In this document: piece by piece, positions 2,701 through 60,114 of the stretch
Position numbering within the stretch: the stretch's first letter is position 1
Layout of the letters: every line of letters starts with the position of its first letter
Source: Escherichia coli
GTDB lineage: Bacteria; Pseudomonadota; Gammaproteobacteria; Enterobacterales; Enterobacteriaceae
DNA length: 64,000 nucleotides
NCBI RefSeq assembly: GCF_002854065.1
Contig: NZ_CP024151.1
Direction: 5' to 3' (one strand)
Notes under the pieces: model-generated
Database searches by the model: none
Told to the model about the DNA's origin: nothing
What the model saw: only the letters and a program-made list of their open reading frames with translations
Translations under genes and position numbers: made by a program

Positions 2701-3563
2701 GCTTAGTCAGCCGTTGTCTCCGGGTGTCGCGTGCGCAGTTGCACGTCATTCTCAGACGAACCGATGACTGGAAAGATGGTCGCCGCAGCCGTCACTCAGA
2801 TGATATGGATGTACTTCTCCGTATACACCATGTTATCGGAGAGCTGCCCACGTATGGTTATCGTCGGGTATGGGCGCTGCTTCGCAGACAGGCCGAACTT
2901 GATGGTATGCCTGCGATCAATGCCAAACGTGTTTACCGGATCATGTGCCAGAATGCGCTGTTGCTTGAGCGAAAAACCGCTGTACCGCCATCGAAGCGGG
3001 CACATACTGGCAAAGTGGCCGTGAAAGAAAGCAATCAACGATGGTGCTCTGACGGGTTCGAGTTCCGCTGTGATAACGGAGAAAAACTGCGAGTCACGTT
3101 CGCGCTGGACTGCTGTGACCGTGAGGCACTGTACTGGGCGGTCACTACGGGCGGCTTCGACAGTGAAACAGTACAGGACGTCATGCTGGGAGCGGTTGAA
3201 CGCCGCTTCGGCAACGAGCTTCCGGCGTCTCCAGTAGAGTGGCTGACGGATAATGGTTCATGCTACCGGGCTAATGAAACACGGCAGTTTGCCCGGATGT
3301 TGGGGCTTGAACCGAAGAACACGGCGGTGCGGAGTCCGGAGAGTAACGGCATAGCAGAGAGCTTCGTGAAAACGATAAAGCGTGACTACATCAGTGTCAT
3401 GCCTAAACCAGACGGGTTAACGGCAGCAAAGAACCTTGCAGAGGCGTTCGAGCATTATAACGAATGGCATCCGCATAGTGCACTGGGTTATCGCTCGCCA
3501 CGGGAATATCTACGGCAGCAGGCCAGTAATGGGTTAAGTGATAACAGGTGTCTGGAAATATAG
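2658..3563 (+). CDS. insD: IS2 transposase OrfB (InsD, DDE domain; expressed by -1 frameshift fusion with OrfA)
   Basis: 301-aa ORF overlapping the insC 3' end in the -1 frame; DDE integrase-like sequence (..WCSDGFEF.., ..[11 protein letters not shown].., ..[12 protein letters not shown]..). Confidence 0.85.
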
Positions 3564-3974
3564 GGGCAAATCCAGTATCCGGATGTGCTGCCAGCCTTCT
3601 CAGTTAACCGATGTTTTCCGGGCTTTTTGCCATACTGAGGACTGATAACGTATTCCTGGTCGTAAAACCCGTCAATATGCGCCGGGGCATCGACAAAACT
3701 GACACAGTACGTCCGGAAAGAACTTAACGCTGCATGGCACGACAATGCTGCCTTTGTCTTTACCAACAAGGCTCGTTCCCGCATAAAAGTTCTACGCCGG
3801 GATAAACATGGCGTATGGCTGCGTCAGGCCTTCACTACTTCACACCGGAAGTCTTCCAGCCTGACACGAATATACCGTCCGGGCTCTTTCGCAGGTGCAA
3901 ACAGTTTTTCACATTCGGCGAATGTCATTTCTGAATCCTGGTAACGCAACCACTGAACCGGCATATTACCGGGT

Positions 3975-4580
3975 TTGATTATTGTCGCAGTTATTTTATA
4001 TCGTTTCCCCATATCGCCTCTCATCCTGACAACAAAATTACCGGCTGAGCCAGGGGGCCCTCACCCCCCTATAAGGGGTCCGCTTGGAAACATATCGAAG
4101 AAAACGGCCGGCGGGAGGAATACGGCGCGCTACCTGGGTCGTTATCTGAAGAAGCCGCCGATAGCAGCCTCCCGGCTGGCACATTACAACGGAGGGGCGA
4201 GCCTGAGCCTCCGTTACCTGGACCACAAAATGGGAGAAACGGCGACGGAAACGCTGACACAGCGAGAGCTGGTCGCGAGGCTGAAACAGCACATCCCGGA
4301 GAAGTTTTTTAAGATGGTGAGGTACTTCGGGTTCCTTGCCAACCGGGTGTGTGGAGAGAAGCTGCCGCAGGTGTACCGTGCTCTGGGGATGGATAAACCG
4401 GAAGCAGTGGCGAAAGTGTGCTATGCACAAATGATGAAACAGTTCCTGAGTCGTGATCCGTTCGAATGCGTGCTGTGTGGCAACCGGATGGTATACCGCC
4501 GGTCCCTTGCGGGGCTGAATGTATCAGGGCTGAAGAAAAACGCGCGGGATATCAGTCTGCTGAGGTATATGCTGGCCTGA
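3975..4580 (+). pseudogene. C-terminal fragment of an IS91-family (HUH Y2) transposase
   Basis: ORF translation ...RYLGRYLKKPPIAASRLAHYNGG...MVRYFGFLANR...CVLCGNRM resembles the C-terminal zinc-binding region of IS91/IS801-type transposases; no N-terminal catalytic half upstream. Family assignment is from memory. Confidence 0.4.
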
Positions 4581-4846
4581 CGCAGGCTAAGTGTGCCCGG
4601 GAATTGGTGCAGGAATAAAAAACAGCCTGTTGCGGTATAAGAATCGACCATGCAGAGAGATAAAACACCGGAGTGGTGGGAAAAGCAGAAGAGCTCACGT
4701 GGCATAAGGCGTGGACAGCGGTATCGTCTGGTTTTTCAATTTCCTATACGTCAAGGATATTTAATGGAATATCAAACATTTGGCCTGATAACAATGCTCA
4801 AGGATTAATACCTGCAGGCTATGTTAAAGTTGTCCCCACACACAAT

Positions 4847-5122
4847 CTACCTGTTTTCTCGTGTGTGCCACAGGCGCAATACATAAATAGTCTGGCCAGT
4901 AAGTTCGTAACGGATTTCGTACTCGCCAGCATAAATCCGTCTGACCTCCCTGGGTTCAAACTGAAACAACTGTTCTCCCATACGTGGATGAGTTAACAGA
5001 ATGACCGGTGCCTGTGTCAGGGACTGCACCGTTCTGGCTGCAGCTGGTTTACTGGCCAGCGCCAGAAAATCATATAACCGCGCCAAATCAGAAAGCGCCT
5101 TACTGGTCCACTTCAGTTCCAT
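4847..5122 (-). CDS. RelE/ParE-superfamily type II toxin
   Basis: 91 aa; ...REVRRIYAGEYEIRYELTGQTIYVLRLWHTRE is the characteristic RelE/ParE C-terminal pattern; start overlaps the stop of the upstream antitoxin. Confidence 0.8.
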   Translation of the reverse strand: MELKWTSKALSDLARLYDFLALASKPAAARTVQSLTQAPVILLTHPRMGEQLFQFEPREVRRIYAGEYEIRYELTGQTIYVLRLWHTRENR

Positions 5123-5406: not shown

Positions 5407-5949
5407 ATCCGATTAGTTGTTAATCATATTTAATCATAGTGATTACTTTCAGACGGAACAAGACAAATAATGCGCGTCAGCGCATGTAAGGCGGCATACG
5501 GTGGTTACATGTAGCACAGGAGTAAAACCGCCGAAGCCCGGCGTAAGCCGGTACGGACTGATAGATTTCACCTTACCCATCCCCAGCCCTGCCAGACCAT
5601 ACCCGCTTTCAGCCATGAGAGAGCTTCTGTGCGCGGTCGGAGTGGTCCCGACGAGGGTTTACCCGAAGTCGGGGCGTATCTCCGCGTTAGCGGGCCGTCA
5701 GGGCCGCTTACGAGCGTGTACTGAGAACTTCCAGCCAGAAGACTGACAGCAATGATAATGTAGTTACAACATTCATAATTAAAAGCGACTCTGTTCCGGC
5801 CCGAAGGGCCGGGGCGGGGCCGCTTTTCAGTTATGAGGGAGGGGCTTTGTGGTTTCAGTTCTGCGCGGGACCGGGGTTTTCCTGGTGGTTGTATTTGAGT
5901 GTTGTAACTAAAATGGCTCCGGTCGGGGCCCGCCGCTTGCGGTGGGAGG

Positions 5950-40829: not shown

Positions 40830-41200
40830 TTTTATTTCATTTACTAATAGTTTGGTCTGAAAAAAGAAGAGCACCCCTAGCAGCGCCCCTAGGGGCATAC
40901 TATAAAAAAACGCACGGCGCTGCTAGGGGCGGCCCTAATATATCCAAATGTTTTTCATAAAATTTGTCAGTACTGACCCTAACAAGGGTCGCCATAGGGT
41001 CGCCATAGGGTCGTCAACGCCCCTATTTAATAATGTAAAATAAATTAAAATACATTATTTAAAACATAAGCTAATGATTCAAAAAGCAAATCAGCAAAAA
41101 CTTGTTTTTGCGTGGGGTGTGGTGCTTTTGGTGGTGAGAACCACCAACCTGTTGAGCCTTTTTGTGGAGTGGGTTAAATTATTTACGGATAAAGTCACCA
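40830..41200 (+). other. oriT: oriT (origin of transfer); nic predicted between 41120 and 41121 on the plus strand
   Basis: F-type nick-region sequence TTTGCGTGGGGTGT|GGTGCTTTTGGTGGTGAGAACCACCAAC on the plus strand; upstream direct repeats GGGTCGCCATAGGGTCGCCATAGGGTCG and inverted repeats GCACCCCTAGCAGCGCCCCTAGGGGC (TraM/TraY-site-like). Confidence 0.8.
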
Positions 41201-49472: not shown

Positions 49473-50036
49473 TCAGGCACGCAGACGAATAATCATCGTC
49501 GGGACATCGGTATAAGCAAACGTGCCGCGCGGCAGCTCCTCGCGGACGTCAGAAAACGGTAACAGCTTCTCCTGCTGGCGTGGTCCGTTGAGACAGACGG
49601 CGACCAGCACGCCACCCGGACGCAACAGGGAAAAGGCCCGCAGGATATGCCGGATATCCTGCCCGTGGCTGAACGGCGGATTCATGATAACCCGGCTGTA
49701 ATACTGCACCGGCTGCCATTCCATGAAGTCGCCACACTGAACCCTGACACCGTTAAAATTTTCCCGCAGATACCGGACCAGCCCGCTGTTGATTTCCACC
49801 GCATCACACATGGCCCCCGGCGCGGTATCCCGAATCGCCCGCAGTATGGCCCCGGTGCCGGCAGAGGGTTCCAGAATGTGATCACGGTTGCTGATCTCCG
49901 CCAGCATCACCAGGCGATCACAGACCGGGGCAGGAGTCACAAAAAGCTGAGATTCAGCCCGGATTTCAGCAACCGGCGCGGCGTTATCCAGCCTTGCGCG
50001 CATCAGCCGGATACGTTCTCTTAACTGACTGTGCAT
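49473..50036 (-). CDS. Small class I SAM-dependent methyltransferase (N6-adenine/N4-cytosine-type motifs)
   Basis: 187 aa; motif I ILEPSAGTGAI and motif IV VIMNPPF; substrate (DNA, RNA or protein) cannot be decided from sequence. Confidence 0.7.
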   Translation of the reverse strand: MHSQLRERIRLMRARLDNAAPVAEIRAESQLFVTPAPVCDRLVMLAEISNRDHILEPSAGTGAILRAIRDTAPGAMCDAVEINSGLVRYLRENFNGVRVQCGDFMEWQPVQYYSRVIMNPPFSHGQDIRHILRAFSLLRPGGVLVAVCLNGPRQQEKLLPFSDVREELPRGTFAYTDVPTMIIRLRA

Positions 50037-50083
50037 ATCATTATCTCCGTCATCCCCCGGGGATTTTCCCGGGGGGATATACC

Positions 50084-51445
50084 TTATTTCTGTGGGATTT
50101 CCGTGATTTTCATGTCGGAGATATACACATTCACCAGGCGGAAATTATTGTCCATTGTGCGGCGGTACCGGTATGCCCCGTGGTCTTCTGCTTCTGCCAC
50201 ACTGCGCACGGCCTTACAGTCCCGGGGCAGGGCGGCCCACTGTGCCTTTGTCATTTCCCGGAAACCTTCCCCCGGATAGTTGACTACCGGCGGACGCTTC
50301 GCGGCCTGACTGGCGACGGCAGCCTCTTCTGCCGATGGTGCTTTGTAGTCCGTGATGCGATCGGGCGTCACTTTCATCGTGCCGCTGTACCCGAGAAAAC
50401 TGTAATTTGGCGTTGTGACTGAACTCACCGCCCCGTTGCTTTTGTTCACACGGATGATGGTCAGCCACTCGCCCCGGCTGAAAACCTGTCCGCCCGGCTC
50501 AAAATCCTGTGTCCGGGTAACCACGCCGCCGCTTTCGTCCAGCATGGCACGCTCATAGATCAGGCGGTTCTGATAGTGGTTAACCCAGCGTTGTTGATGC
50601 TGAATCTGCCGTTCATGACAGCGGATCGCAATTTCGCGGGCCTGCTCCGTGGTGATGATGTCATCATCCAGGGCCGACCATAACGATCGACTTCCTTCAT
50701 ACTGGCTTTTTTCTGCCGGGCGCGGATACGTATCCAGCGGGAAACAGGCGCTGATATGGTCATGACTGCTGATGAGTTTTGCCATATTCAGATCCAGCGA
50801 TTCAGCCCGCCACATCGTCAGATATTTCTGCGACTGCGCGATGGTCTTTTCAGCCTTGCGCAAATCAGCTTCGATTTTTTTGATACGACGCCAGCGAACG
50901 TCCGGACGTTCTTTATACTTCGCGTGAAGCAGTGCCGACCGCGCCCGCTCTTCCCAGTATTCCGCACGTTCAAAGAGCATCACGGCTCGTTTCATGCCGT
51001 TTTCAATACGCTGCGCATCACGACGGGCGCGGCGTTCGCTGTGATGCCCCACAAGAATGGGCTGACCGGGCGGGATCATCGCGGCCAGTCTTTCCACTTC
51101 ATCAAGTGCCTGTGCGGATTCACTGGCCCGCTTTCCGCTGTATCCGGTAAACCGCTCCGCCCGTGCTTCCTGACGTTCAGCGAGCGTGCTGTCTTCATCC
51201 TCAATCTCTCCGGCAAGTGAGAGGAGCACGTCTTCCCGGCCCGGTGTCCAGGCTGGCGCGACAAACAGCGCCTGTTTGGGTGCCCAGCGAAAACCGGCAT
51301 CATGCACTTTTTTATACGTCTCCGGGTCGAGGCGTGACGCGGCATACAGGCGCAGTTTGTTGTCATCCGGTGAGTAGGTCGCGCGGTACATCTGCACAGG
51401 GCTGGCGGCTTCCGGGGCGGTCATGGTGATTGCTGCTAATGTCAT
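50084..51445 (-). CDS. Hypothetical protein, 453 aa (leading region)
   Basis: Long ORF with coiled-coil-like basic/acidic middle region; no motif recognised by inspection; co-directional and tightly spaced with flanking genes. Confidence 0.65.
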   Translation of the reverse strand: MTLAAITMTAPEAASPVQMYRATYSPDDNKLRLYAASRLDPETYKKVHDAGFRWAPKQALFVAPAWTPGREDVLLSLAGEIEDEDSTLAERQEARAERFTGYSGKRASESAQALDEVERLAAMIPPGQPILVGHHSERRARRDAQRIENGMKRAVMLFERAEYWEERARSALLHAKYKERPDVRWRRIKKIEADLRKAEKTIAQSQKYLTMWRAESLDLNMAKLISSHDHISACFPLDTYPRPAEKSQYEGSRSLWSALDDDIITTEQAREIAIRCHERQIQHQQRWVNHYQNRLIYERAMLDESGGVVTRTQDFEPGGQVFSRGEWLTIIRVNKSNGAVSSVTTPNYSFLGYSGTMKVTPDRITDYKAPSAEEAAVASQAAKRPPVVNYPGEGFREMTKAQWAALPRDCKAVRSVAEAEDHGAYRYRRTMDNNFRLVNVYISDMKITEIPQK

Positions 51446-52764: not shown

Positions 52765-52956
52765 TCACCTGTTTCTGCTACCCTGTAAGATGTAGTGACC
52801 GCCCAGGAAAACCGCCTGCTGATTCGCCACAAAATCGCAGATTTCATCAACAATCTGCGCGGTGGTGAGCGGTTTCTGCCCCATTTCACGACGCCGCGCA
52901 TTAATCACGGCCCTGTAATTACGCAGAATTTCGCGGGTTTCTGTGCTGATATTCAT
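52765..52956 (-). CDS. Hypothetical small protein, 63 aa
   Basis: Start overlaps the stop of the upstream 144-aa gene by 4 nt (translational coupling). Confidence 0.4.
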   Translation of the reverse strand: MNISTETREILRNYRAVINARRREMGQKPLTTAQIVDEICDFVANQQAVFLGGHYILQGSRNR

Positions 52957-53387
52957 GACATCGTCTCCCCGTCCAGCGCCTGTAACACAACGTCCATTGC
53001 TTCGCGTTCCTCCCTGACGAATGCGTCACCGTCGCCCCCGTTCTCACTCCCGACGGCATACAGGCGCTTCATTTCACTGCCTGCCAGCGCCATCACTTTT
53101 TCCAGCATCACCGCCGGGACTGTCACCTGACGGCTGGCGCGCTTTTCTTCCATCAGTTCATGAACAACGCCGTGAACAACGCCGTGAACAACGCTGACAT
53201 CCGCACCATATTCAAAGGCATCGTCCAGCCGCTGCATGACGGTTTCCAGCTCATCGTCTGTCAGACTCCAGTCCTGGGCTATGTGACGCACATCCCCACG
53301 GGTCAGCACCACGGCAAAAACGCATTCACTGTCCGGCACGTCTGTATCCAGCACTTCGCGGATAATTTCTTTAACAGTACAGTACAT
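52953..53387 (-). CDS. Hypothetical acidic protein, 144 aa (paralogue A)
   Basis: Shares ends and central motif (RQVTVPA) with the 55103..55537 product; SD AAGGAG before ATG 53387; contains an in-frame 12-bp x3 tandem repeat. Confidence 0.65.
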   Translation of the reverse strand: MYCTVKEIIREVLDTDVPDSECVFAVVLTRGDVRHIAQDWSLTDDELETVMQRLDDAFEYGADVSVVHGVVHGVVHELMEEKRASRQVTVPAVMLEKVMALAGSEMKRLYAVGSENGGDGDAFVREEREAMDVVLQALDGETMS

Positions 53388-53859: not shown

Positions 53860-54275
53860 GATGTTTTCCTCCGTTGTTCACATATTCCGCGACACCGGGC
53901 GGTGCCGTGCCTCCATAAAAGCCGGGCGAACAGGCGGGGATGCAGGGGCGCAAGGGAAGCCGCAGCCTGACGCACACGGCTGACGGGAGTTGCAGGGTGA
54001 GACCGCGAAATCTGAGCGGGTGAACGACCGGAAAATCACGGCAGACGGGAAGGAGGGACCGGGTGACCGCAGCGGCGAAGCGTACCCTTGCATCAACGCC
54101 AGCCCGGCTAAGATGGAGGCACGGCACAGCCCGCACACGACGCTGAGGCCACATAACTGAAAAACCACAAGGCCATGCCCTGCATGGCCGGGTAAAGCGG
54201 AGCCGGCGGCGACTTCCTTTGTGCTCTGTCCGGGGACCGGCAGGAAAAAGGCGGGGATTTACCCCGCCAGTGTCA

Positions 54276-55103
54276 TCATTTCCGGATTTTTGCCAGGGCA
54301 TCCGCCATGCTGCGGATTTCGGTCCGGGCTTCCCGGACCACCTCCCGCAGAACACCACGGTCAAACCAGCGGCGGGGCGGTTCATCCGGTATACGCAGCA
54401 CATCGCAGGCCAGCCCACTGGACAGGATATGCTCAATACACTCACTGACCAGATACATTTCCACCGACGAAAAACGTGCTCCCCGGTTCACGATGGCATC
54501 GAGCACCACGGGCAGGTTTTCGTCATCTTCATCGAGCCAGCAGGGGTGATCGCTTTCCTTCACGACCAGGCGAAAGCGGCGCGTCTGGCGGGTCAGCAAC
54601 GTCTGACCGGTGGTGGTCAGCGCCGCACGGATACGCCGCGCATCTTCTGCCACCTGGTAACAGATGCTTCGTACCGCATCGTGCACCGCATCAAGAACAG
54701 CCTTGATTTCGTCTTCGGTCAGCCATTCTCCGGCATACGGGAAAGACACCTGCGTTCCGTCTGCCGGAAGTACCGGCAGCGACTGCCACTGACTGCCGGA
54801 CAGTACCAGTTCCGCCCCGGTTCCGGTCAGTCTCTGAATGGCGGAGGCCAGGAGCGGCGGCAGTACGCCGCCGTGACGGTTGATAAGTAACGTCGCCAGC
54901 CGGGGCGCATCCAGCCGCACGTAAATGCTGATCCAGCCCGGATAGTTCGGATTTCGCTGGTCAACATCCGTCTCTTCCGGCCAGTCCTGCGCCAGCAGCA
55001 GGTTACGGGCGTGACGACAAATCAGTGCGTTCAGCGTGCTGTTTTCGTTCATGATTAAGCGTTCTCCCTGTATCGCCGCCCGCAGGGCAGGCGGCGATAA
55101 CAT
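54276..55103 (-). CDS. Hypothetical protein, about 258-275 aa (leading region)
   Basis: Track ORF; alternative start at 55052 ([10 protein letters not shown]...). Stop/start abuts the upstream paralogue-B gene. Confidence 0.6.
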
Positions 55104-55537
55104 CAGTTGTTTTCGTGTGTGTTGTTTTTCAGCAGGGTGCGGGCCTGATTAACCACCGCCTGACGGCGGGTAACGCATTCCGGGACGGCGAGGCCGTTAT
55201 CACGGGCGGCCCACTCACGTTTCCACAGTGCCTGTTCAGCGGTCTGAATCAGGGACGCCAGCAGTTCAGCAGGGACGGTCACCTGGCGGTTTTCGCTCAC
55301 GTTGCTGATAATCTCCATCACCGCGGCGGAAGAAATACCGGATTCAGTCCGCTGGTCTTCCGGGATGTCCTCCATGCGCGCCAGGACGGTCCTGATTTCA
55401 TGATCGGTCAGAGAAATTTCCATACCGTCAGCCAGTGCCTGAATCTCTTCCGGGGACCAGATAACCAGCATCAGCGGCGCGTCTCCCGGATACTTTGCTG
55501 CCAGCTCCCGGCATAGCGTTTCGCATGTTCCGTACAT
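55103..55537 (-). CDS. Hypothetical acidic protein, 144 aa (paralogue B)
   Basis: Paralogous to 52953..53387 (same length, MY.T..E..RE N-terminus, ...LTD.E..TV..R..D..., RQVTVPA core); near-identical RBS context (AAGGAGACGAGAA-ATG). Confidence 0.65.
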
Positions 55538-55550
55538 TCTCGTCTCCTTC

Positions 55551-55772
55551 TCAATCTTTGAAGCAGGAATCCAGTTCCAGAATTTCGGTATACGCCTCCA
55601 TAAACAGGCGATTGGCGCGATACAGCGTCTGGCGTGTCAGGCGTTCAACAAGCACATCGGAATCAAAGCGACAGCGATGCTCCATATCGTTCAGCCTAGC
55701 CCGAAGGTCACACATGGTGTTGGCCACCTCCGCCACGTCGGCGCGAAGTTTTTCGTGTCCGGCATAGTTCAT
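55551..55772 (-). CDS. Hypothetical small protein, 73 aa
   Basis: ORF immediately downstream of the methyltransferase gene (adjacent stop/start). Confidence 0.45.
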   Translation of the reverse strand: MNYAGHEKLRADVAEVANTMCDLRARLNDMEHRCRFDSDVLVERLTRQTLYRANRLFMEAYTEILELDSCFKD

Positions 55773-56456
55773 TTACGCAGCCTCCGGTTCAAACCAGTTA
55801 TCATTCGCGGCCCCCTGCTGCATGGCCCGTTGCACGGCGGCCAGTCGTTGCTGTCCGGCACGGTGATACTGTTCAAGCAGCTCGATACCGATATACCGGC
55901 GTCCGGACTGGAGGGCGGCCACGCAGGTTGAGCCGCTGCCTGCAAACGGGTCCAGCACAATCGCGTTCGGATGTGTGAAGCTCTCAATCAGTGGTTGCAG
56001 GCTGGTAACGGGCTTTTCCGTCGGGTGATGGCGGTTGCCCGAATATTTCCAGCCCAGCACGTCGGGTAATGGCTTCGGAGGCAGCGCCGGACGGCCTTTT
56101 GCCAGGATATAGGCGCATTCGTGACGGTACGCGACATACGCAGATTTGGATGTGTAGCTTTTGGTGAACACAAGGTGCCCTACAACGCTGAATCCGGCGC
56201 GTTTCCAGGCTGCCATAAAGCGGTCAATACGGTTCCAGCCATAGAAACTCACCATCAGCGCATCTTTTTTTAGTACGCGGTACATCTCATTACTGGCAGG
56301 TTGCAGCCAGTCATCGTTAACGTCACCGGCAATGGTGCGCCCGGAACGGTCACGAAAACCAACGAGATATGGTGGGTCGGTTAAGATGAAATCAATGGCG
56401 TTATCAGGAATCGTGGCCATAACACGCACGCAGTCACCCAGGATAAAACGGGACAT
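55773..56456 (-). CDS. Orphan DNA methyltransferase, beta class (N6-adenine or N4-cytosine; YhdJ-like)
   Basis: 227 aa; motif IV DPPY near the N-terminus (..DFILTDPPYLVGF..), HPTEKP, and motif I DPFAGSGST near the C-terminus, the circularly permuted beta-class order; no adjacent restriction endonuclease candidate. Confidence 0.85.
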   Translation of the reverse strand: MSRFILGDCVRVMATIPDNAIDFILTDPPYLVGFRDRSGRTIAGDVNDDWLQPASNEMYRVLKKDALMVSFYGWNRIDRFMAAWKRAGFSVVGHLVFTKSYTSKSAYVAYRHECAYILAKGRPALPPKPLPDVLGWKYSGNRHHPTEKPVTSLQPLIESFTHPNAIVLDPFAGSGSTCVAALQSGRRYIGIELLEQYHRAGQQRLAAVQRAMQQGAANDNWFEPEAA

Positions 56457-56841
56457 AACAGCACTCCTCCTCTTACAGAGGGCACCGGGAGGGCGCCCCT
56501 GTGGCGCCCGTTCTCCGCTGCCTGTGGGCTGTTCACCGCGTCCGGTAACGGGTCAGGCCGACCGTGGAATACCGCAGCCGTCGTCTTTCTGACGGCGAGG
56601 ATATGCCGCGAAAGCGGCTTGAAGGGCATTCATCAGAAAAGGGCGACAGGCTGGCGTACACTGTCACCGACGCCAGCCAGGAGCGGTAAAAGCGCCCGTC
56701 CCGTGCCCGGCCGGACACGGGACACTGACCACAGGCAGCGTTCCTGCCGCGCCGCGTCAGCCGGCGCAGTAAAAAGAGGAGCACGGCGACATCCTTTGTC
56801 GGAAAAGAAACGGGCGGTTGCCCGCCCGTCTCCGTCATACT

Positions 56842-57768: not shown

Positions 57769-58122
57769 GGGAATTCTCCTCTCACATGCGGCCTCTATCA
57801 GGCCGTGCCGCACCTGTAACCGGGCGACCGCATACGAATGCAGGTGCGGCCCCGAAGCCGCAGCGCGTGGAGGAGGAACGACGAAACGTGACCGGGTGAG
57901 GAGGCCGGCGACAGCGACACACTTGCATCGGATGCAGCCCGGTTAACGTGCCGGCACGGCCTGGGTAACCAGGTATTTTATTCACAGAACCGTGCGCAAA
58001 ATGCTGTGGATAAGCTGGACACAGCAGTCCACAGCAGGCATACAGCCACACCCTCAGAGAATTGAGCGTTTTTTAGTCACAATAATGACATTTGACTGTG
58101 TGTGGATTCAGTTATTAGAATG

Positions 58123-58410: not shown

Positions 58411-58844
58411 GTACCGTTTATCACCGTCCGGCTGACCCTTCAGGCGATGACAGTTACGTGCGACCGTTGTTTGCCGATCGTTGCCAGGCCGGTTTTCCTT
58501 CGCCTGCCACTGATTATGCTGAGCAGGAACTGGATCTGAACAGCTATTGCATCAGCAGACCTGCAGCCACCTTCTTTCTGCGCGCCAGCGGTGAATCGAT
58601 GAACCAGGCTGGCGTGCAGAATGGTGATCTGCTGGTAGTGGACAGGGCCGAGAAACCACAACACGGGGACATCGTTATCGCTGAGATCGACGGTGAGTTC
58701 ACCGTCAAACGACTGCTGTTGCGCCCACGCCCGGCACTGGAGCCGGTTTCAGACAGCCCGGAATTTCGCACACTGTATCCGGAAAACATCTGTATTTTTG
58801 GTGTTGTCACTCACGTGATACACAGGACGCGGGAGTTACGCTGA
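58407..58844 (+). CDS. UmuD/ImpA/MucA-family protein (LexA-like S24 peptidase, Pol V accessory subunit)
   Basis: 145 aa; C-terminal peptidase-S24 region with ...RASGESMNQAGVQNGDLLVVDRAEKPQHGDIVIAEIDGEFTVKRL...; overlaps dinI-like stop. Confidence 0.88.
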   Translation: MSTVYHRPADPSGDDSYVRPLFADRCQAGFPSPATDYAEQELDLNSYCISRPAATFFLRASGESMNQAGVQNGDLLVVDRAEKPQHGDIVIAEIDGEFTVKRLLLRPRPALEPVSDSPEFRTLYPENICIFGVVTHVIHRTRELR

Positions 58845-60114
58845 TGTTTGCACTGGCTGATATCAACAGTTTCTACGCCTCATGTGAAAAAGTTTTCCGC
58901 CCGGACCTTCGCAACGAACCGGTCATCGTACTCAGCAATAACGATGGCTGTGTGATCGCGCGCAGCCGGAGGCAAAAGCCCTTGGCATCAGAATGGGGCA
59001 GCCCTGGTTTCAGGTGAGACAGATGCGCCTGGAGAAGAAAATACATGTATTTTCCAGCAATTATGCGCTGTACCACAGCATGAGCCAACGGGTCATGGCT
59101 GTTCTGGAGTCGCTTTCTCCCGCAGTTGAGCCCTACTCAATTGATGAAATGTTCATTGATTTGCGGGGGATAAATCATTGCATCTCTCCGGAGGTTTTTG
59201 GTCATCAGCTCAGGGAACAGGTAAAGAGCTGGACAGGACTCACCATGGGGGTGGGCATTGCGCCTACAAAAACGCTGGCTAAAAGTGCACAGTGGGCAAC
59301 AAAGCAATGGCCACAGTTTTCCGGTGTGGTCGCGCTGGAGGCAGAAAACCGTAATCGGATCTTGAAGCTACTGGGGCTGCAGCCAGTTGGTGAGGTCTGG
59401 GGAGTAGGACGCAGACTGACGGAAAAGCTGAATGCGCTGGGTATTAACACAGCACTGCAGCTGGCGCAGGCTAACACGGCATTCATCCGGAAAAACTTCA
59501 GCGTCATTCTTGAGCGTACGGTACGCGAACTCAACGGCGAGTCCTGCATATCCCTGGAAGAAGCACCACCGGCAAAACAGCAGATTGTCTGTAGTCGCAG
59601 TTTTGGTGAACGAATCACAGACAAAGATGCCATGCACCAGGCTGTTGTTCAGTATGCAGAGCGGGCCGCAGAGAAACTACGTGGGGAGCGTCAGTATTGC
59701 CGGCAGGTGACGACATTTGTACGGACATCCCCCTTTGCAGTAAAAGAACCCTGTTACAGCAATGCCGCTGTGGAAAAGCTTCCATTACCCACACAGGACA
59801 GCCGGGACATTATTGCCGCAGCATGCAGAGCGTTAAACCATGTCTGGCGTGAAGGGTACCGCTATATGAAGGCAGGAGTCATGCTGGCTGATTTCACACC
59901 ATCGGGTATAGCGCAGCCGGGATTATTTGATGAGATCCAGCCCCGTAAAAACAGCGAAAAGTTAATGAAAACACTCGATGAACTGAACCAGTCTGGAAAA
60001 GGGAAAGTGTGGTTTGCGGGGCGAGGAACCGCCCCTGAATGGCAAATGAAACGGGAAATGCTCTCGCCTTCGTATACAACACAATGGACTGAGATCCCCA
60101 TTGCTTCATTCTGA
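58844..60114 (+). pseudogene. UmuC/ImpB/MucB-family Y-family DNA polymerase gene interrupted by a -1 frameshift near 58960
   Basis: N-terminus MFALADINSFYASCEKVFRPDLRNEPVIVLSNNDGCVIAR is in one frame (58844 onward, stops at 59017); the rest (AQPEAKALGIRMGQPWFQ... to ...TQWTEIPIASF) continues in another frame from about 58960 (track ORF 58993..60114). Confidence 0.7.

What the first reader, a model, noticed from the sequence alone, without database searches (positions are those of the whole stretch)
54276..56456. Tightly coupled operon: orphan beta-class DNA methyltransferase, then 73-aa, 144-aa and ~275-aa unknown proteins
The four ORFs have adjacent or overlapping stops and starts (56456..55773, 55772..55551, 55537..55103, 55103..54276) and sit behind a hairpin-rich block. 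The methyltransferase has beta-class motif order (DPPY then FAGSGST) and no cognate endonuclease. Its three partners are unassigned. Orphan methyltransferases in leading regions are thought to pre-protect incoming DNA, but the co-transcribed partners are not explained by that role.
Basis: partly seen in the sequence, partly recalled or inferred. Interest (0 to 1): 0.55.

Follow-up and report, generated by a model that had tools for sequence, protein, structure and literature searches.

The report
Known plasmid early-entry methylase operon
This is the already described "M.EcoGIX" operon of F-like and I1-like resistance plasmids, switched on from a folded single-stranded DNA promoter as the plasmid enters a new cell; its methylase shields the incoming DNA from restriction, while its three small companion proteins are real, very common and still of unknown function.

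Summary
The four genes are real and lie in the leading region of an IncF plasmid, 13-15 kb from the oriT nick (41115-41128, + strand). The same block occurs at 90% identity or more in over 5,000 plasmids and, in the same gene order, in IncI1 plasmid pESBL. There the methylase (M.EcoGIX, 92% identical) has been shown to methylate single-stranded DNA and protect against restriction, and the upstream hairpin block (95% identical) was mapped as a "class 3" single-strand promoter. I confirmed that this block is a conserved branched hairpin of about 223 nt with strong covariation that favours the transferred strand. One correction: the last gene starts at 55052 (258 aa), not 55103, after a 50-nt spacer holding a conserved hairpin. 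The partners (YubE; YubF, a DUF1380 protein; YubG, also called YchA) are under purifying selection and have no known function. YubG gives a confident model with no structural match. Comparative loci show the operon is modular. YubG occurs without the others, DUF1380 is variably present, recombination breakpoints lie inside the operon, and the promoter class is swapped in some plasmids. Only MTase-YubE is consistently translationally coupled. The locus is known; the partners' function is a recognised open question.

The parts
56517..56739 (+). Branched hairpin of about 223 nt on the transferred (template) strand. It is the class 3 / ssp3-type single-strand DNA promoter of the operon. The closing helices are 56517-56545 paired with 56711-56739. 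The invariant GCCGCGAAAGCGGC lies at 56605-56618.
   Evidence: ssDNA fold z -6.1. 95% identical to the pESBL M.EcoGIX upstream block, which was mapped by 5' RACE (PMC12672017). Covariation: 26 of 88 pairs with double changes, 0 of 500 shuffles. The T strand folds better than the mRNA-sense strand (-125.9 vs -98.7 kcal/mol), with 94 G:T cells against 18 A:C cells. Coordinates.
56457..56516 (-). 5' leader with a small covarying hairpin (56492-56508, nested in 56477-56516) and the SD AAGAGGAGGAG.
   Evidence: Helices 1 and 2 (4 of 6 pairs in helix 2 have double changes). Sequence. Possible masking of the SD in the mRNA is not significant (z -1.7).
55773..56456 (-). yubD / yfeA: orphan beta-class N6-adenine DNA methyltransferase, 227 aa, an M.EcoGIX orthologue.
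   Evidence: NF010253 at 487.8 bits. 92% identical to M.EcoGIX. PADLOC MTase_II hit only. dN/dS about 0.1.
55551..55772 (-). yubE (Hp9 in pESBL): 73-aa protein, no predicted structure obtained, translationally coupled to the methylase (TAAATG).
   Evidence: Proteins 99-100% identical carry a precomputed PF27407 'YubE' hit. PHROG 4830. Always 73 aa, with conserved MNYxGHExLR and LDxxFxD motifs and a conserved TAATG/TGATG/TAAATG junction. dN/dS 0.13-0.22.
55103..55537 (-). yubF / yfcB (Hp10): DUF1380 protein, 144 aa, acidic (pI 4.7), predicted all-helical.
   Evidence: Pfam PF07128, E = 6e-53. pI. AF2 pLDDT 79.5, pTM 0.46, matching only generic helical bundles. dN/dS 0.25-0.33.
55071..55099 (-). 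Intercistronic 13-bp GC-rich hairpin with no T-run, between yubF and yubG. Probably a degenerate terminator, attenuator or RNA-stability element.
   Evidence: RNA -26.2 kcal/mol, z -4.1. A hairpin is present at this position in every lineage, built from at least 4 different sequences. In loci lacking yubG, the hairpin at the same position is followed by a T-run.
54276..55052 (-). yubG / ychA / ycfA (Hp11, 'NgrC'): 258-aa alpha/beta protein of unassigned fold. The start is corrected from 55103 to 55052.
54250..54268 (-). Intrinsic terminator ending the operon (GGCGGGG-TAAAT-CCCCGCC followed by TTTTT).
56802..56833 (-). Intrinsic terminator of the upstream DUF1281 gene, which marks the upstream boundary of the transcription unit.
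   Evidence: -24.3 kcal/mol, z -4.6, followed by a U-run. Sequence.
41115..41128 (+). oriT nick sequence GGGTGT|GGTGCTTT (context). It fixes the + strand as the transferred strand and the template of the operon.
   Evidence: Exact match on the + strand. ORFs on the other side have sizes fitting traM/J/Y/A; these names are assigned from memory.

Best explanation
This is the IncF copy of the M.EcoGIX (yubD/yfeA) early-establishment operon.

1. During conjugation the + strand enters the recipient 5' to 3' from the nick at about 41.1 kb.
2. About 15.5 kb later, the roughly 223-nt element at 56517-56739 arrives and folds on the single strand into a branched hairpin. Host RNA polymerase uses it as a promoter.
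3. Transcription runs through yubD, yubE and yubF, then through a hairpin that lacks a T-run into yubG. It stops at the terminator at 54250-54268.
4. YubE is translated by coupling to the methylase stop codon. YubF and YubG have their own ribosome-binding sites.
5. The methylase modifies adenines in the loose context SAY on the incoming single strand, which blunts type II restriction.
6. When the complementary strand is made, the hairpin disappears and the operon falls silent.

The three partners are not parts of the enzyme. They are separate, faster-evolving leading-region cassettes that share the promoter because they are needed (or tolerated) in the same short time window. I infer that YubF and YubG are small non-enzymatic binding proteins aimed at host factors, that is, candidate anti-defence or establishment factors. 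YubE is the one partner plausibly tied to the methylase itself, as a modulator or accessory.

Shown elsewhere for near-identical homologues: steps 2, 5 and 6. Shown here: the strand, anatomy, structural conservation, selection and modularity. Inferred: the roles of the partners.
For: - Identity of the locus: over 5,000 plasmids hold it at 90% identity or more. pESBL has the same gene order, with the MTase 92%, YubE 77%, DUF1380 91%, YubG 92% and the promoter block 95% identical.
- Published function: M.EcoGIX gives SAY m6A on single strands, and its knockout or oriT inversion sensitises the plasmid to EcoGIII and EcoRI (PMC4288162, PMC7736820).
- Published expression: RNA-seq induction in transconjugants, 5' RACE mapping, class 3 promoter conserved in F (PMC12672017). 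ssp3 in F (bioRxiv 2026.01.09.698686).
- Strand: nick on the + strand at 41115.
- Promoter structure. No sigma-70 duplex promoter in 53.8-57.9 kb.
- Partners are real genes: dN/dS 0.13-0.48.
- Partners are separable. YubG occurs alone between DUF1281 and KlcA (L005, L007, L008). MTase-YubE-YubG occurs without DUF1380 (L009). MTase-YubE-DUF1380 ends in a true terminator without YubG (L016, L017, L026-28). MTase-DUF1380 occurs without YubE (L031). Betaproteobacterial relatives have none of the three.
- Mosaic history: against pESBL, dS is 0.39, 0.93, 0.14 and 0.135 for the four genes.
- Promoter class is swapped in other plasmids.
- The cloned methylase ORF alone is active (PMC7736820).
- MTase-YubE coupling is conserved in all lineages, and YubE was never seen without at least an MTase remnant directly upstream.
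Against: - No experiment on this exact plasmid exists. Promoter activity, transcript extent and methylation are transferred from homologues.
- I could not place canonical -35/-10 boxes or the transcription start in the hairpin, because the published figure is not held.
- The roles proposed for the partners rest only on location, acidity, lack of catalytic motifs and faster evolution. Structure gave no assignment.
- The pESBL knockout replaced the MTase gene with a gentamicin cassette, so polar effects on the partners were not excluded. Part of the published phenotype could therefore belong to them.
- The gene order MTase-YubE-DUF1380 is kept even where the partners have diverged to 22-37% identity. 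This could mean a functional link rather than mere shared descent.
- My linkage sample was mostly anchored on the MTase.
Confidence: 0.78

Rival explanations
1. The four proteins form one functional machine. YubE, YubF and YubG would be specificity, targeting or processivity subunits that the methylase needs in its natural setting, for example to load on SSB-coated single strands or to couple to DNA polymerase I.
For: - Co-transcription and a conserved gene order in most enterobacterial loci, even at low partner identity.
- In-frame DUF1380-YubG fusions exist in several backgrounds.
- The pESBL knockout may have been polar.
- In vivo methylation by the cloned enzyme is incomplete, about 40% of sites.
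Against: - The cloned MTase ORF alone methylates single strands.
- YubG occurs without the other three, and each partner is missing from some MTase loci.
- Recombination breakpoints lie between the genes.
- The fusions are deletions at an ARNLL microhomology, seen alongside MTase-YubG, YubG-SSB and DUF1281-YubG fusions, so they reflect a deletion-prone region.
- Betaproteobacterial relatives, which include the type of the characterised M.BceJIII, lack all three.
Confidence: 0.08
2. YubE is a dedicated brake or antidote for a promiscuous and potentially harmful methylase (an inhibitor, titrator or turnover factor). YubF and YubG are unrelated passengers.
For: - The MTase stop and YubE start overlap or abut in every lineage, with the SD inside the MTase coding sequence.
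- YubE is present in 28 of about 30 enterobacterial MTase loci and was never seen without an MTase or its remnant upstream.
- Its length is fixed at 73 aa with conserved termini.
- The enzyme perturbs plasmid copy number and M13 replication, and its authors expect broad methylation to be disruptive.
Against: - The MTase is tolerated when cloned alone.
- L031 keeps the MTase and DUF1380 without YubE.
- dS differs between the MTase and YubE in the same plasmid pairs, so their alleles are not co-inherited.
- No homologue accompanies the betaproteobacterial enzymes; their 84-aa coupled ORF is unrelated (hhalign probability 0.3%).
Confidence: 0.2
3. The partners are functionless or nearly neutral hitch-hikers (or mis-called ORFs) that persist only because they sit in a successful plasmid backbone.
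For: - Tn-seq in pESBL scored Hp9, Hp10 and Hp11 the same as M.EcoGIX, which the authors state is not required for transfer to a K-12 recipient.
- There are many natural deletion derivatives.
- A clonal Salmonella lineage carries them behind a disrupted promoter.
Against: - All three have dN/dS well below 1 across saturated synonymous divergence.
- Lengths and motifs are conserved down to 22-36% identity.
- YubG gives a confident compact fold.
- They are among the 11 largest T-strand leading-region families.
- The methylase itself is also neutral in a K-12 recipient and shows its role only against restricting recipients.
Confidence: 0.1
4. The upstream hairpin block acts as a structured mRNA leader (riboregulator or attenuator), or only as a priming site for complementary-strand synthesis, rather than as a single-strand promoter.
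For: - Compensatory changes preserve pairing on both strands.
- The small hairpin next to the SD covaries (helix 2).
- The invariant GCGAAAGC mini-hairpin is, from my own knowledge, a motif known from single-strand replication origins.
- Frpo-type elements are reported to prime DNA synthesis as well.
Against: - The transferred strand gives 88 pairs at -125.9 kcal/mol, against 76 pairs at -98.7 for the mRNA sense. G:T cells outnumber A:C cells by 94 to 18.
- The upstream gene ends in a terminator, and no duplex promoter is found that could produce such a leader.
- 5' RACE in pESBL placed starts at the predicted single-strand promoters.
- No Rfam family matches.
- A priming role is not excluded and could coexist with the promoter role.
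Confidence: 0.05

Closest known systems
M.EcoGIX operon of IncI1 plasmid pESBL-EA11 (M.EcoGIX-Hp9-Hp10-Hp11/YchA), with its class 3 single-strand promoter; equivalent to YfbB in R64 and YfeA/YubD with ssp3 in F
   Same: Same gene order and flanks: DinI-UmuDC on the opposite strand, DUF1281, the promoter block, the MTase, the 73-aa gene, DUF1380, the 258-aa gene, KlcA/ArdB, a second DUF1380 and a 63-aa gene. The MTase is 92%, the promoter block 95% and KlcA 100% identical. Same orientation relative to oriT.
   Different: The plasmid backbone is IncF (MOBF, F-type nick) rather than IncI1. YubE is only 77% identical. The yubF-yubG spacer hairpin has a longer stem and loop (50-nt vs 45-nt spacer). 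Nothing has been measured on this plasmid.
Frpo / ssi (class 1) single-strand promoters of F and ColIb-P9
   Same: Long hairpin on the transferred strand in the leading region, upstream of early genes. By homology it is active only before complementary-strand synthesis.
   Different: According to PMC12672017 this is a different sequence class. Here the fold is branched, with an invariant core, and I could not identify reconstituted -35/-10 boxes. I did not test similarity to Frpo directly.
M.BceJIII-type relatives on betaproteobacterial replicons
   Same: Same methylase subfamily (61-66% identity in Achromobacter, Bordetella and Paraburkholderia loci). M.BceJIII shares the SAY single-strand specificity.
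   Different: YubE, DUF1380 and YubG are all absent. Achromobacter and Bordetella instead have an unrelated 84-aa ORF overlapping the stop codon.
Leading-region anti-defence islands (Samuel et al. 2024)
   Same: T-strand orientation, clustering with KlcA/ArdB, SSB and PsiB, and single-strand promoters. All four genes are in their top-11 families.
   Different: The partners have no match to any known anti-restriction, anti-CRISPR or anti-SOS family by sequence, either in that study's table or in my searches; YubG also has no structural match.

Membership tests
M.EcoGIX-type orphan single-strand N6-adenine methyltransferase (NCBIfam NF010253; Pfam PF01555) | Sequence membership above the curated cutoff | tested here: met
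   NF010253 at 487.8 bits against a cutoff of 244, full length 1-227. 92% identical to M.EcoGIX.
M.EcoGIX-type orphan single-strand N6-adenine methyltransferase (NCBIfam NF010253; Pfam PF01555) | Beta-class motif order (DPPY before FxGxG) | tested here: met
   DPPY at 27-30 and FAGSGST at 171-177 in the translation.
M.EcoGIX-type orphan single-strand N6-adenine methyltransferase (NCBIfam NF010253; Pfam PF01555) | No cognate restriction endonuclease nearby | tested here: met
   Neighbours have no nuclease or defence hits in NCBIfam, PHROGs or PADLOC. The annotation of identical plasmids lists none.
M.EcoGIX-type orphan single-strand N6-adenine methyltransferase (NCBIfam NF010253; Pfam PF01555) | Leading-region position, with the transferred strand as template | tested here: met
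   Nick at 41115-41128 on the + strand, genes on the - strand, 13-15 kb downstream in transfer order.
M.EcoGIX-type orphan single-strand N6-adenine methyltransferase (NCBIfam NF010253; Pfam PF01555) | m6A at SAY on single-stranded DNA, and protection from restriction in the recipient | not testable with these tools
   Shown only for M.EcoGIX and M.BceJIII (PMC7736820, PMC4288162).
Class 3 / ssp3 single-strand DNA promoter | Sequence homology to the mapped pESBL M.EcoGIX promoter block | tested here: met
   367 of 385 nt identical.
Class 3 / ssp3 single-strand DNA promoter | Large stable stem-loop on the transferred strand, conserved in evolution | tested here: met
   z -6.1. Covariation controls 0 of 500. 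Strand asymmetry.
Class 3 / ssp3 single-strand DNA promoter | -35 and -10 boxes reconstituted in the stem, and a mapped +1 | tested here: inconclusive
   A conserved TAxAxT (56657) and an invariant TTGAAG were seen, but not at workable spacing. The published figure with the +1 is not held.
Class 3 / ssp3 single-strand DNA promoter | Active on single-stranded DNA and silent on duplex DNA | not testable with these tools
   No duplex sigma-70 promoter was found in the region, which is consistent but is not a test.
DUF1380 (Pfam PF07128) | Profile match over the full domain | tested here: met
   E = 6.2e-53, residues 1-136 on model positions 1-137 of 137.
YubE (Pfam PF27407) | Profile match | tested here: met
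   The Pfam copy I could scan lacks this family. Proteins 99-100% identical carry a precomputed PF27407 hit. PHROG 4830, E = 1e-36.
Type II restriction-modification system | Methylase paired with an endonuclease of the same specificity | tested here: not met
   No endonuclease candidate in the operon or its flanks. Partner folds and profiles are unrelated to nucleases.
Known anti-restriction families (ArdA, ArdB/KlcA, Ocr-like), considered for the three partners | Sequence or fold similarity to a characterised anti-restriction protein | tested here: not met

The most novel reading that the evidence does not exclude
At least one of the three partners is a new kind of early-acting effector. The options are:
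- YubG, a confident alpha/beta fold with no counterpart among solved structures, or YubF (DUF1380) neutralises a host defence or reprograms the recipient by a mechanism not yet described.
- YubE is a dedicated modulator of a single-strand-specific methylase, which would be a new type of methylase accessory.

The faster evolution, allelic diversity, duplication (two or three DUF1380 genes per leading region) and cassette-like gain and loss would then be the signature of an arms race.
Probability: 0.35. Interest if true: 0.62.

Novelty: already known. Interest (0 to 1): 0.33.

Why it matters
This block travels on thousands of IncF and IncI1 resistance and virulence plasmids and is expressed in the first minutes after entry, when the fate of a transfer event is decided. 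The methylase and its promoter are understood in outline. The three companion proteins belong to four of the eleven most abundant leading-region gene families, and nobody knows what they do. Showing that they are under selection, separable from the methylase and, for YubG, of unassigned fold turns a vague "unknown partners" remark into specific testable questions about how plasmids establish themselves. That is relevant to blocking the spread of resistance. The finding itself, however, re-discovers a published locus.

Tried and rejected
- Pfam, NCBIfam, PHROGs and PADLOC on all partners gave only family labels of unknown function.
- Sequence searches of the PDB with single proteins and with a YubE profile found nothing beyond coiled-coil noise.
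- I first read the DUF1380-YubG and YubE-DUF1380 fused gene calls as Rosetta-stone evidence. I rejected this because they are deletions or frameshifts in a deletion-prone region, seen together with fusions to SSB, the MTase and DUF1281.
- The gonococcal island 'yfeB' is an unrelated name.
- Literature searches under the yff/yfe and yub names found nothing on the partners. One search was swamped by 'Yubi-wakka'.
- Supplementary files of PMC12672017 are not held, so per-gene induction values could not be read.
There is no phage match for YubG.
- I tried to locate -35/-10 boxes in the hairpin by eye without success.
- Rfam has no match.
- The betaproteobacterial 84-aa ORF is not a remote YubE homologue.
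- The Salmonella IS110 lineage looked at first like YubE surviving without the MTase. The copies are identical (clonal) and an MTase remnant is present, so it says nothing about selection.
Full report
**What is in the window.** The region lies in the leading region of an IncF-type conjugative plasmid. A 3-kb query around the finding matches at least 5,000 PLSDB plasmids at 90% identity or more. These are mostly Escherichia, Klebsiella, Salmonella and Shigella plasmids, and most are conjugative. Annotated copies show the classical neighbourhood: hok, psiA, psiB, a ParB-like gene, ssb, a KlcA/ArdB antirestriction gene, then this block, then DUF1281, and umuDC/dinI on the other strand. The exact F-type nick sequence GGGTGT|GGTGCTTT is on the + strand at 41115-41128, and on its other side lie ORFs whose sizes fit traM, traJ, traY and traA (names from memory, not annotated here). 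The + strand is therefore the transferred strand. It enters 5' to 3' towards higher coordinates and is the template for the minus-strand genes of the finding, which lie 13-15 kb from the nick.

**Check of the observation.** The four ORFs exist.
- The methylase (56456..55773) has a strong Shine-Dalgarno sequence.
- The 73-aa gene starts directly after its stop (TAAATG).
- The 144-aa gene follows after 13 nt with its own SD.
- The fourth junction was mis-read. The overlapping ATG at 55103 has no SD and is out of frame in pESBL, where the spacer is 45 nt rather than 50 nt. PHROG 8919 covers residues 18-275 only, and PGAP also calls the gene as 777 nt (258 aa). The gene therefore starts at 55052 and encodes 258 aa.
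- The 50-nt spacer holds a 13-bp hairpin at 55071-55099.
- A terminator follows the last stop, and another ends the upstream DUF1281 gene.
- DPPY precedes FAGSGST, and the protein is a full-length member of NCBIfam NF010253.
- No endonuclease candidate is nearby.

**The locus is already described.** IncI1 plasmid pESBL-EA11 has the same gene order. Identities are 92% for the methylase (M.EcoGIX), 77% for the 73-aa protein, 91% for DUF1380, 92% for the 258-aa protein, 95% for the 385-nt upstream block and 100% for KlcA.
- M.EcoGIX makes m6A at SAY on single strands. Its replacement lowers transfer into EcoGIII or EcoRI recipients by up to about 1000-fold, and inverting oriT has the same effect (PMC4288162, PMC7736820).
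- RNA-seq of early transconjugants showed that the M.EcoGIX operon is one of six strongly induced units in pESBL and is also induced in F. 5' RACE placed its start at a hairpin that the authors call a class 3 single-strand promoter, conserved in F (PMC12672017). A later preprint calls the F element ssp3.
- In the supplementary table of Samuel et al. 2024, the methylase is family 8 (3,753 members), DUF1380 is family 7 (3,957) and YchA/YubG is family 10 (3,556). An uncharacterised family 11 (3,388) sits at the adjacent ORF position and is presumably YubE; I infer this from position only. All are on the T strand, and the partners are labelled uncharacterised.

**The hairpin block.**
- The + strand of 56457-56841 folds as ssDNA at -108.4 kcal/mol (z -6.1).
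- I aligned the transferred strand of 16 plasmids whose blocks are 75-96% identical to the window. The consensus fold has 88 pairs, 26 of them with compensatory double changes.
- In the controls, 95.9% of cells are paired, against 34-44% when partners are slid. The double-change count is 26 against 11.8 +/- 2.0 in shuffles, reached by 0 of 500.
- The closing helices map to 56517-56545 and 56711-56739. An invariant core contains GCCGCGAAAGCGGC (56605-56618).
- Folding the opposite strand gives fewer pairs and 27 kcal/mol less stability. G:T cells outnumber A:C cells by 94 to 18. Both fit a structure selected on the transferred DNA strand.
- No duplex sigma-70 promoter and no Rfam family were found.
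- I could not place -35/-10 boxes.
- In other plasmids the operon sits behind a different, equally foldable block related to the window's klcA-upstream element. Promoter classes are therefore exchanged between operons.

**The partners.**
- **Names.** YubE is also called Hp9. The DUF1380 protein is YubF, YfcB or Hp10. The 258-aa protein is YubG, YchA, YcfA, NgrC or Hp11.
- **No assignment.** None has a functional assignment in any library or in the PDB. I found no paper on them.
- **Real genes.** dN/dS is about 0.1 for the methylase, 0.13-0.22 for YubE, 0.25-0.33 for DUF1380 and 0.2-0.48 for YubG.
- **DUF1380.** It is acidic and predicted all-helical, with only generic matches.
- **YubE.** It is always 73 aa, with conserved termini.

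**Are they a unit?** I examined loci anchored on YubG, on the methylase (48 loci from species-representative genomes) and on YubE.
- YubG occurs alone between DUF1281 and KlcA in divergent plasmids.
- MTase-YubE-YubG occurs without DUF1380.
- MTase-YubE-DUF1380 occurs without YubG, and there the hairpin after DUF1380 carries a T-run and acts as a terminator. Where YubG is present, a hairpin sits at the same position with at least four different sequences and no T-run.
- One locus has the MTase and DUF1380 without YubE.
- Betaproteobacterial relatives of the methylase (61-66% identity) have none of the three.
- Synonymous divergence differs several-fold between adjacent genes in the same plasmid pair, so recombination breakpoints fall inside the operon.
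- Fused gene calls are deletion products.
- The cloned methylase alone is active.
- Against this modular picture, the MTase stop and YubE start overlap or abut in every lineage, and YubE was never found without a methylase or its remnant directly upstream.

My reading is a three-gene core, of which MTase-YubE is the tightest pair, with YubG as an add-on read through a disabled terminator. All four are expressed together because they share the entry-time promoter, not because they form one enzyme.

**Mechanism and its status.**
- Shown elsewhere for near-identical homologues: promoter use on the single strand, induction on entry, shut-off on conversion to duplex, SAY methylation and protection from restriction.
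- Shown here: strand assignment, anatomy, structural conservation, terminators, the start correction, selection on the partners, and modularity.
- Inferred: that YubF and YubG are binding proteins directed at host factors, and that YubE modulates or accompanies the methylase.
- Caveat: the published knockout was a cassette replacement, so polarity on the partners was not excluded.

**Verdict.** The locus is already known, and what remains open is the function of three very abundant proteins. Interest is moderate to low for the finding as such. It would be higher if a partner proves to be a new effector.

Noticed in passing
window 58844-60114 (+): umuC is split by a frameshift after about 41 codons (ORFs 58844..59017 and 58993..60114), so it is probably a pseudogene. 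umuD and the dinI-like gene upstream look intact.
   Followed up: partly
window 56533-56838 (-): The 101-aa 'hypothetical protein' that PGAP annotates here (and in pESBL) lies on top of the covarying single-strand hairpin. The 16-plasmid alignment has indels of 1, 2 and 5 nt, so no reading frame is conserved. It is probably a spurious gene call.
   Followed up: partly
window 53860-54275 and 57814-58101 (+ strand): Two more strongly folding ssDNA blocks (z -4.4 and -4.5) lie upstream of klcA and of the DUF1281 gene, and they are related to each other. Relatives of the klcA block replace the ssp3-type block upstream of the methylase in other plasmids (L012, L016-L020, L022, L024, L027-L029). Promoter classes are therefore swapped, and the DUF1281 gene may also be driven from the single strand.
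   Followed up: partly
window 52765-53387 (-); L059-L063 5233-6097: A second DUF1380 paralogue (29% identical) plus a 63-aa gene follow klcA, mirroring the methylase operon. A Salmonella lineage carries two divergent DUF1380 genes in tandem. DUF1380 genes thus accumulate in leading regions like cassettes.
   Followed up: partly
L059-L063 (Salmonella contigs), about 2850-5000: An IS110-family element is inserted inside the ssp3 hairpin (near promoter position 235), and the methylase is truncated or frameshifted with loss of the DPPY region. YubE, DUF1380 x2, YubG and KlcA remain intact. The identical YubE protein is indexed in 837 blocks of the collection, so this is a recent clonal spread.
   Followed up: partly
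L011, L013, L022, L035, L036, L056: Methylase loci at 85-100% identity are filed under Streptomyces morookaense, Oscillibacter, Collinsella and Oscillospiraceae assemblies. These look like enterobacterial plasmid contamination or mis-binned contigs.
   Followed up: no
L041-L043, L048, about 5645-5900: Achromobacter and Bordetella relatives of the methylase have a conserved ORF of about 84 aa overlapping the methylase stop codon. It is unrelated to YubE (hhalign probability 0.3%), so a small coupled downstream gene may be a recurring arrangement.
   Followed up: partly
window 49473-51445 (-): A second orphan methyltransferase (class I SAM-dependent, 187 aa) sits behind a 453-aa DUF3560 gene in the same leading region.
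   Followed up: no
window 56450-56520 (-): In the mRNA, the SD of the methylase can pair with an upstream CCCUCU stretch. The fold is not significant (z -1.7), so translational masking is only a possibility.
   Followed up: partly
proteins P0070, P0088, P0104, P0113, P0118, P0003: Recurrent in-frame deletion fusions occur (DUF1380-YubG at an ARNLL microhomology, MTase-YubG, YubG-SSB, DUF1281-YubG), some of them on many contigs. The leading region is deletion-prone.
   Followed up: partly
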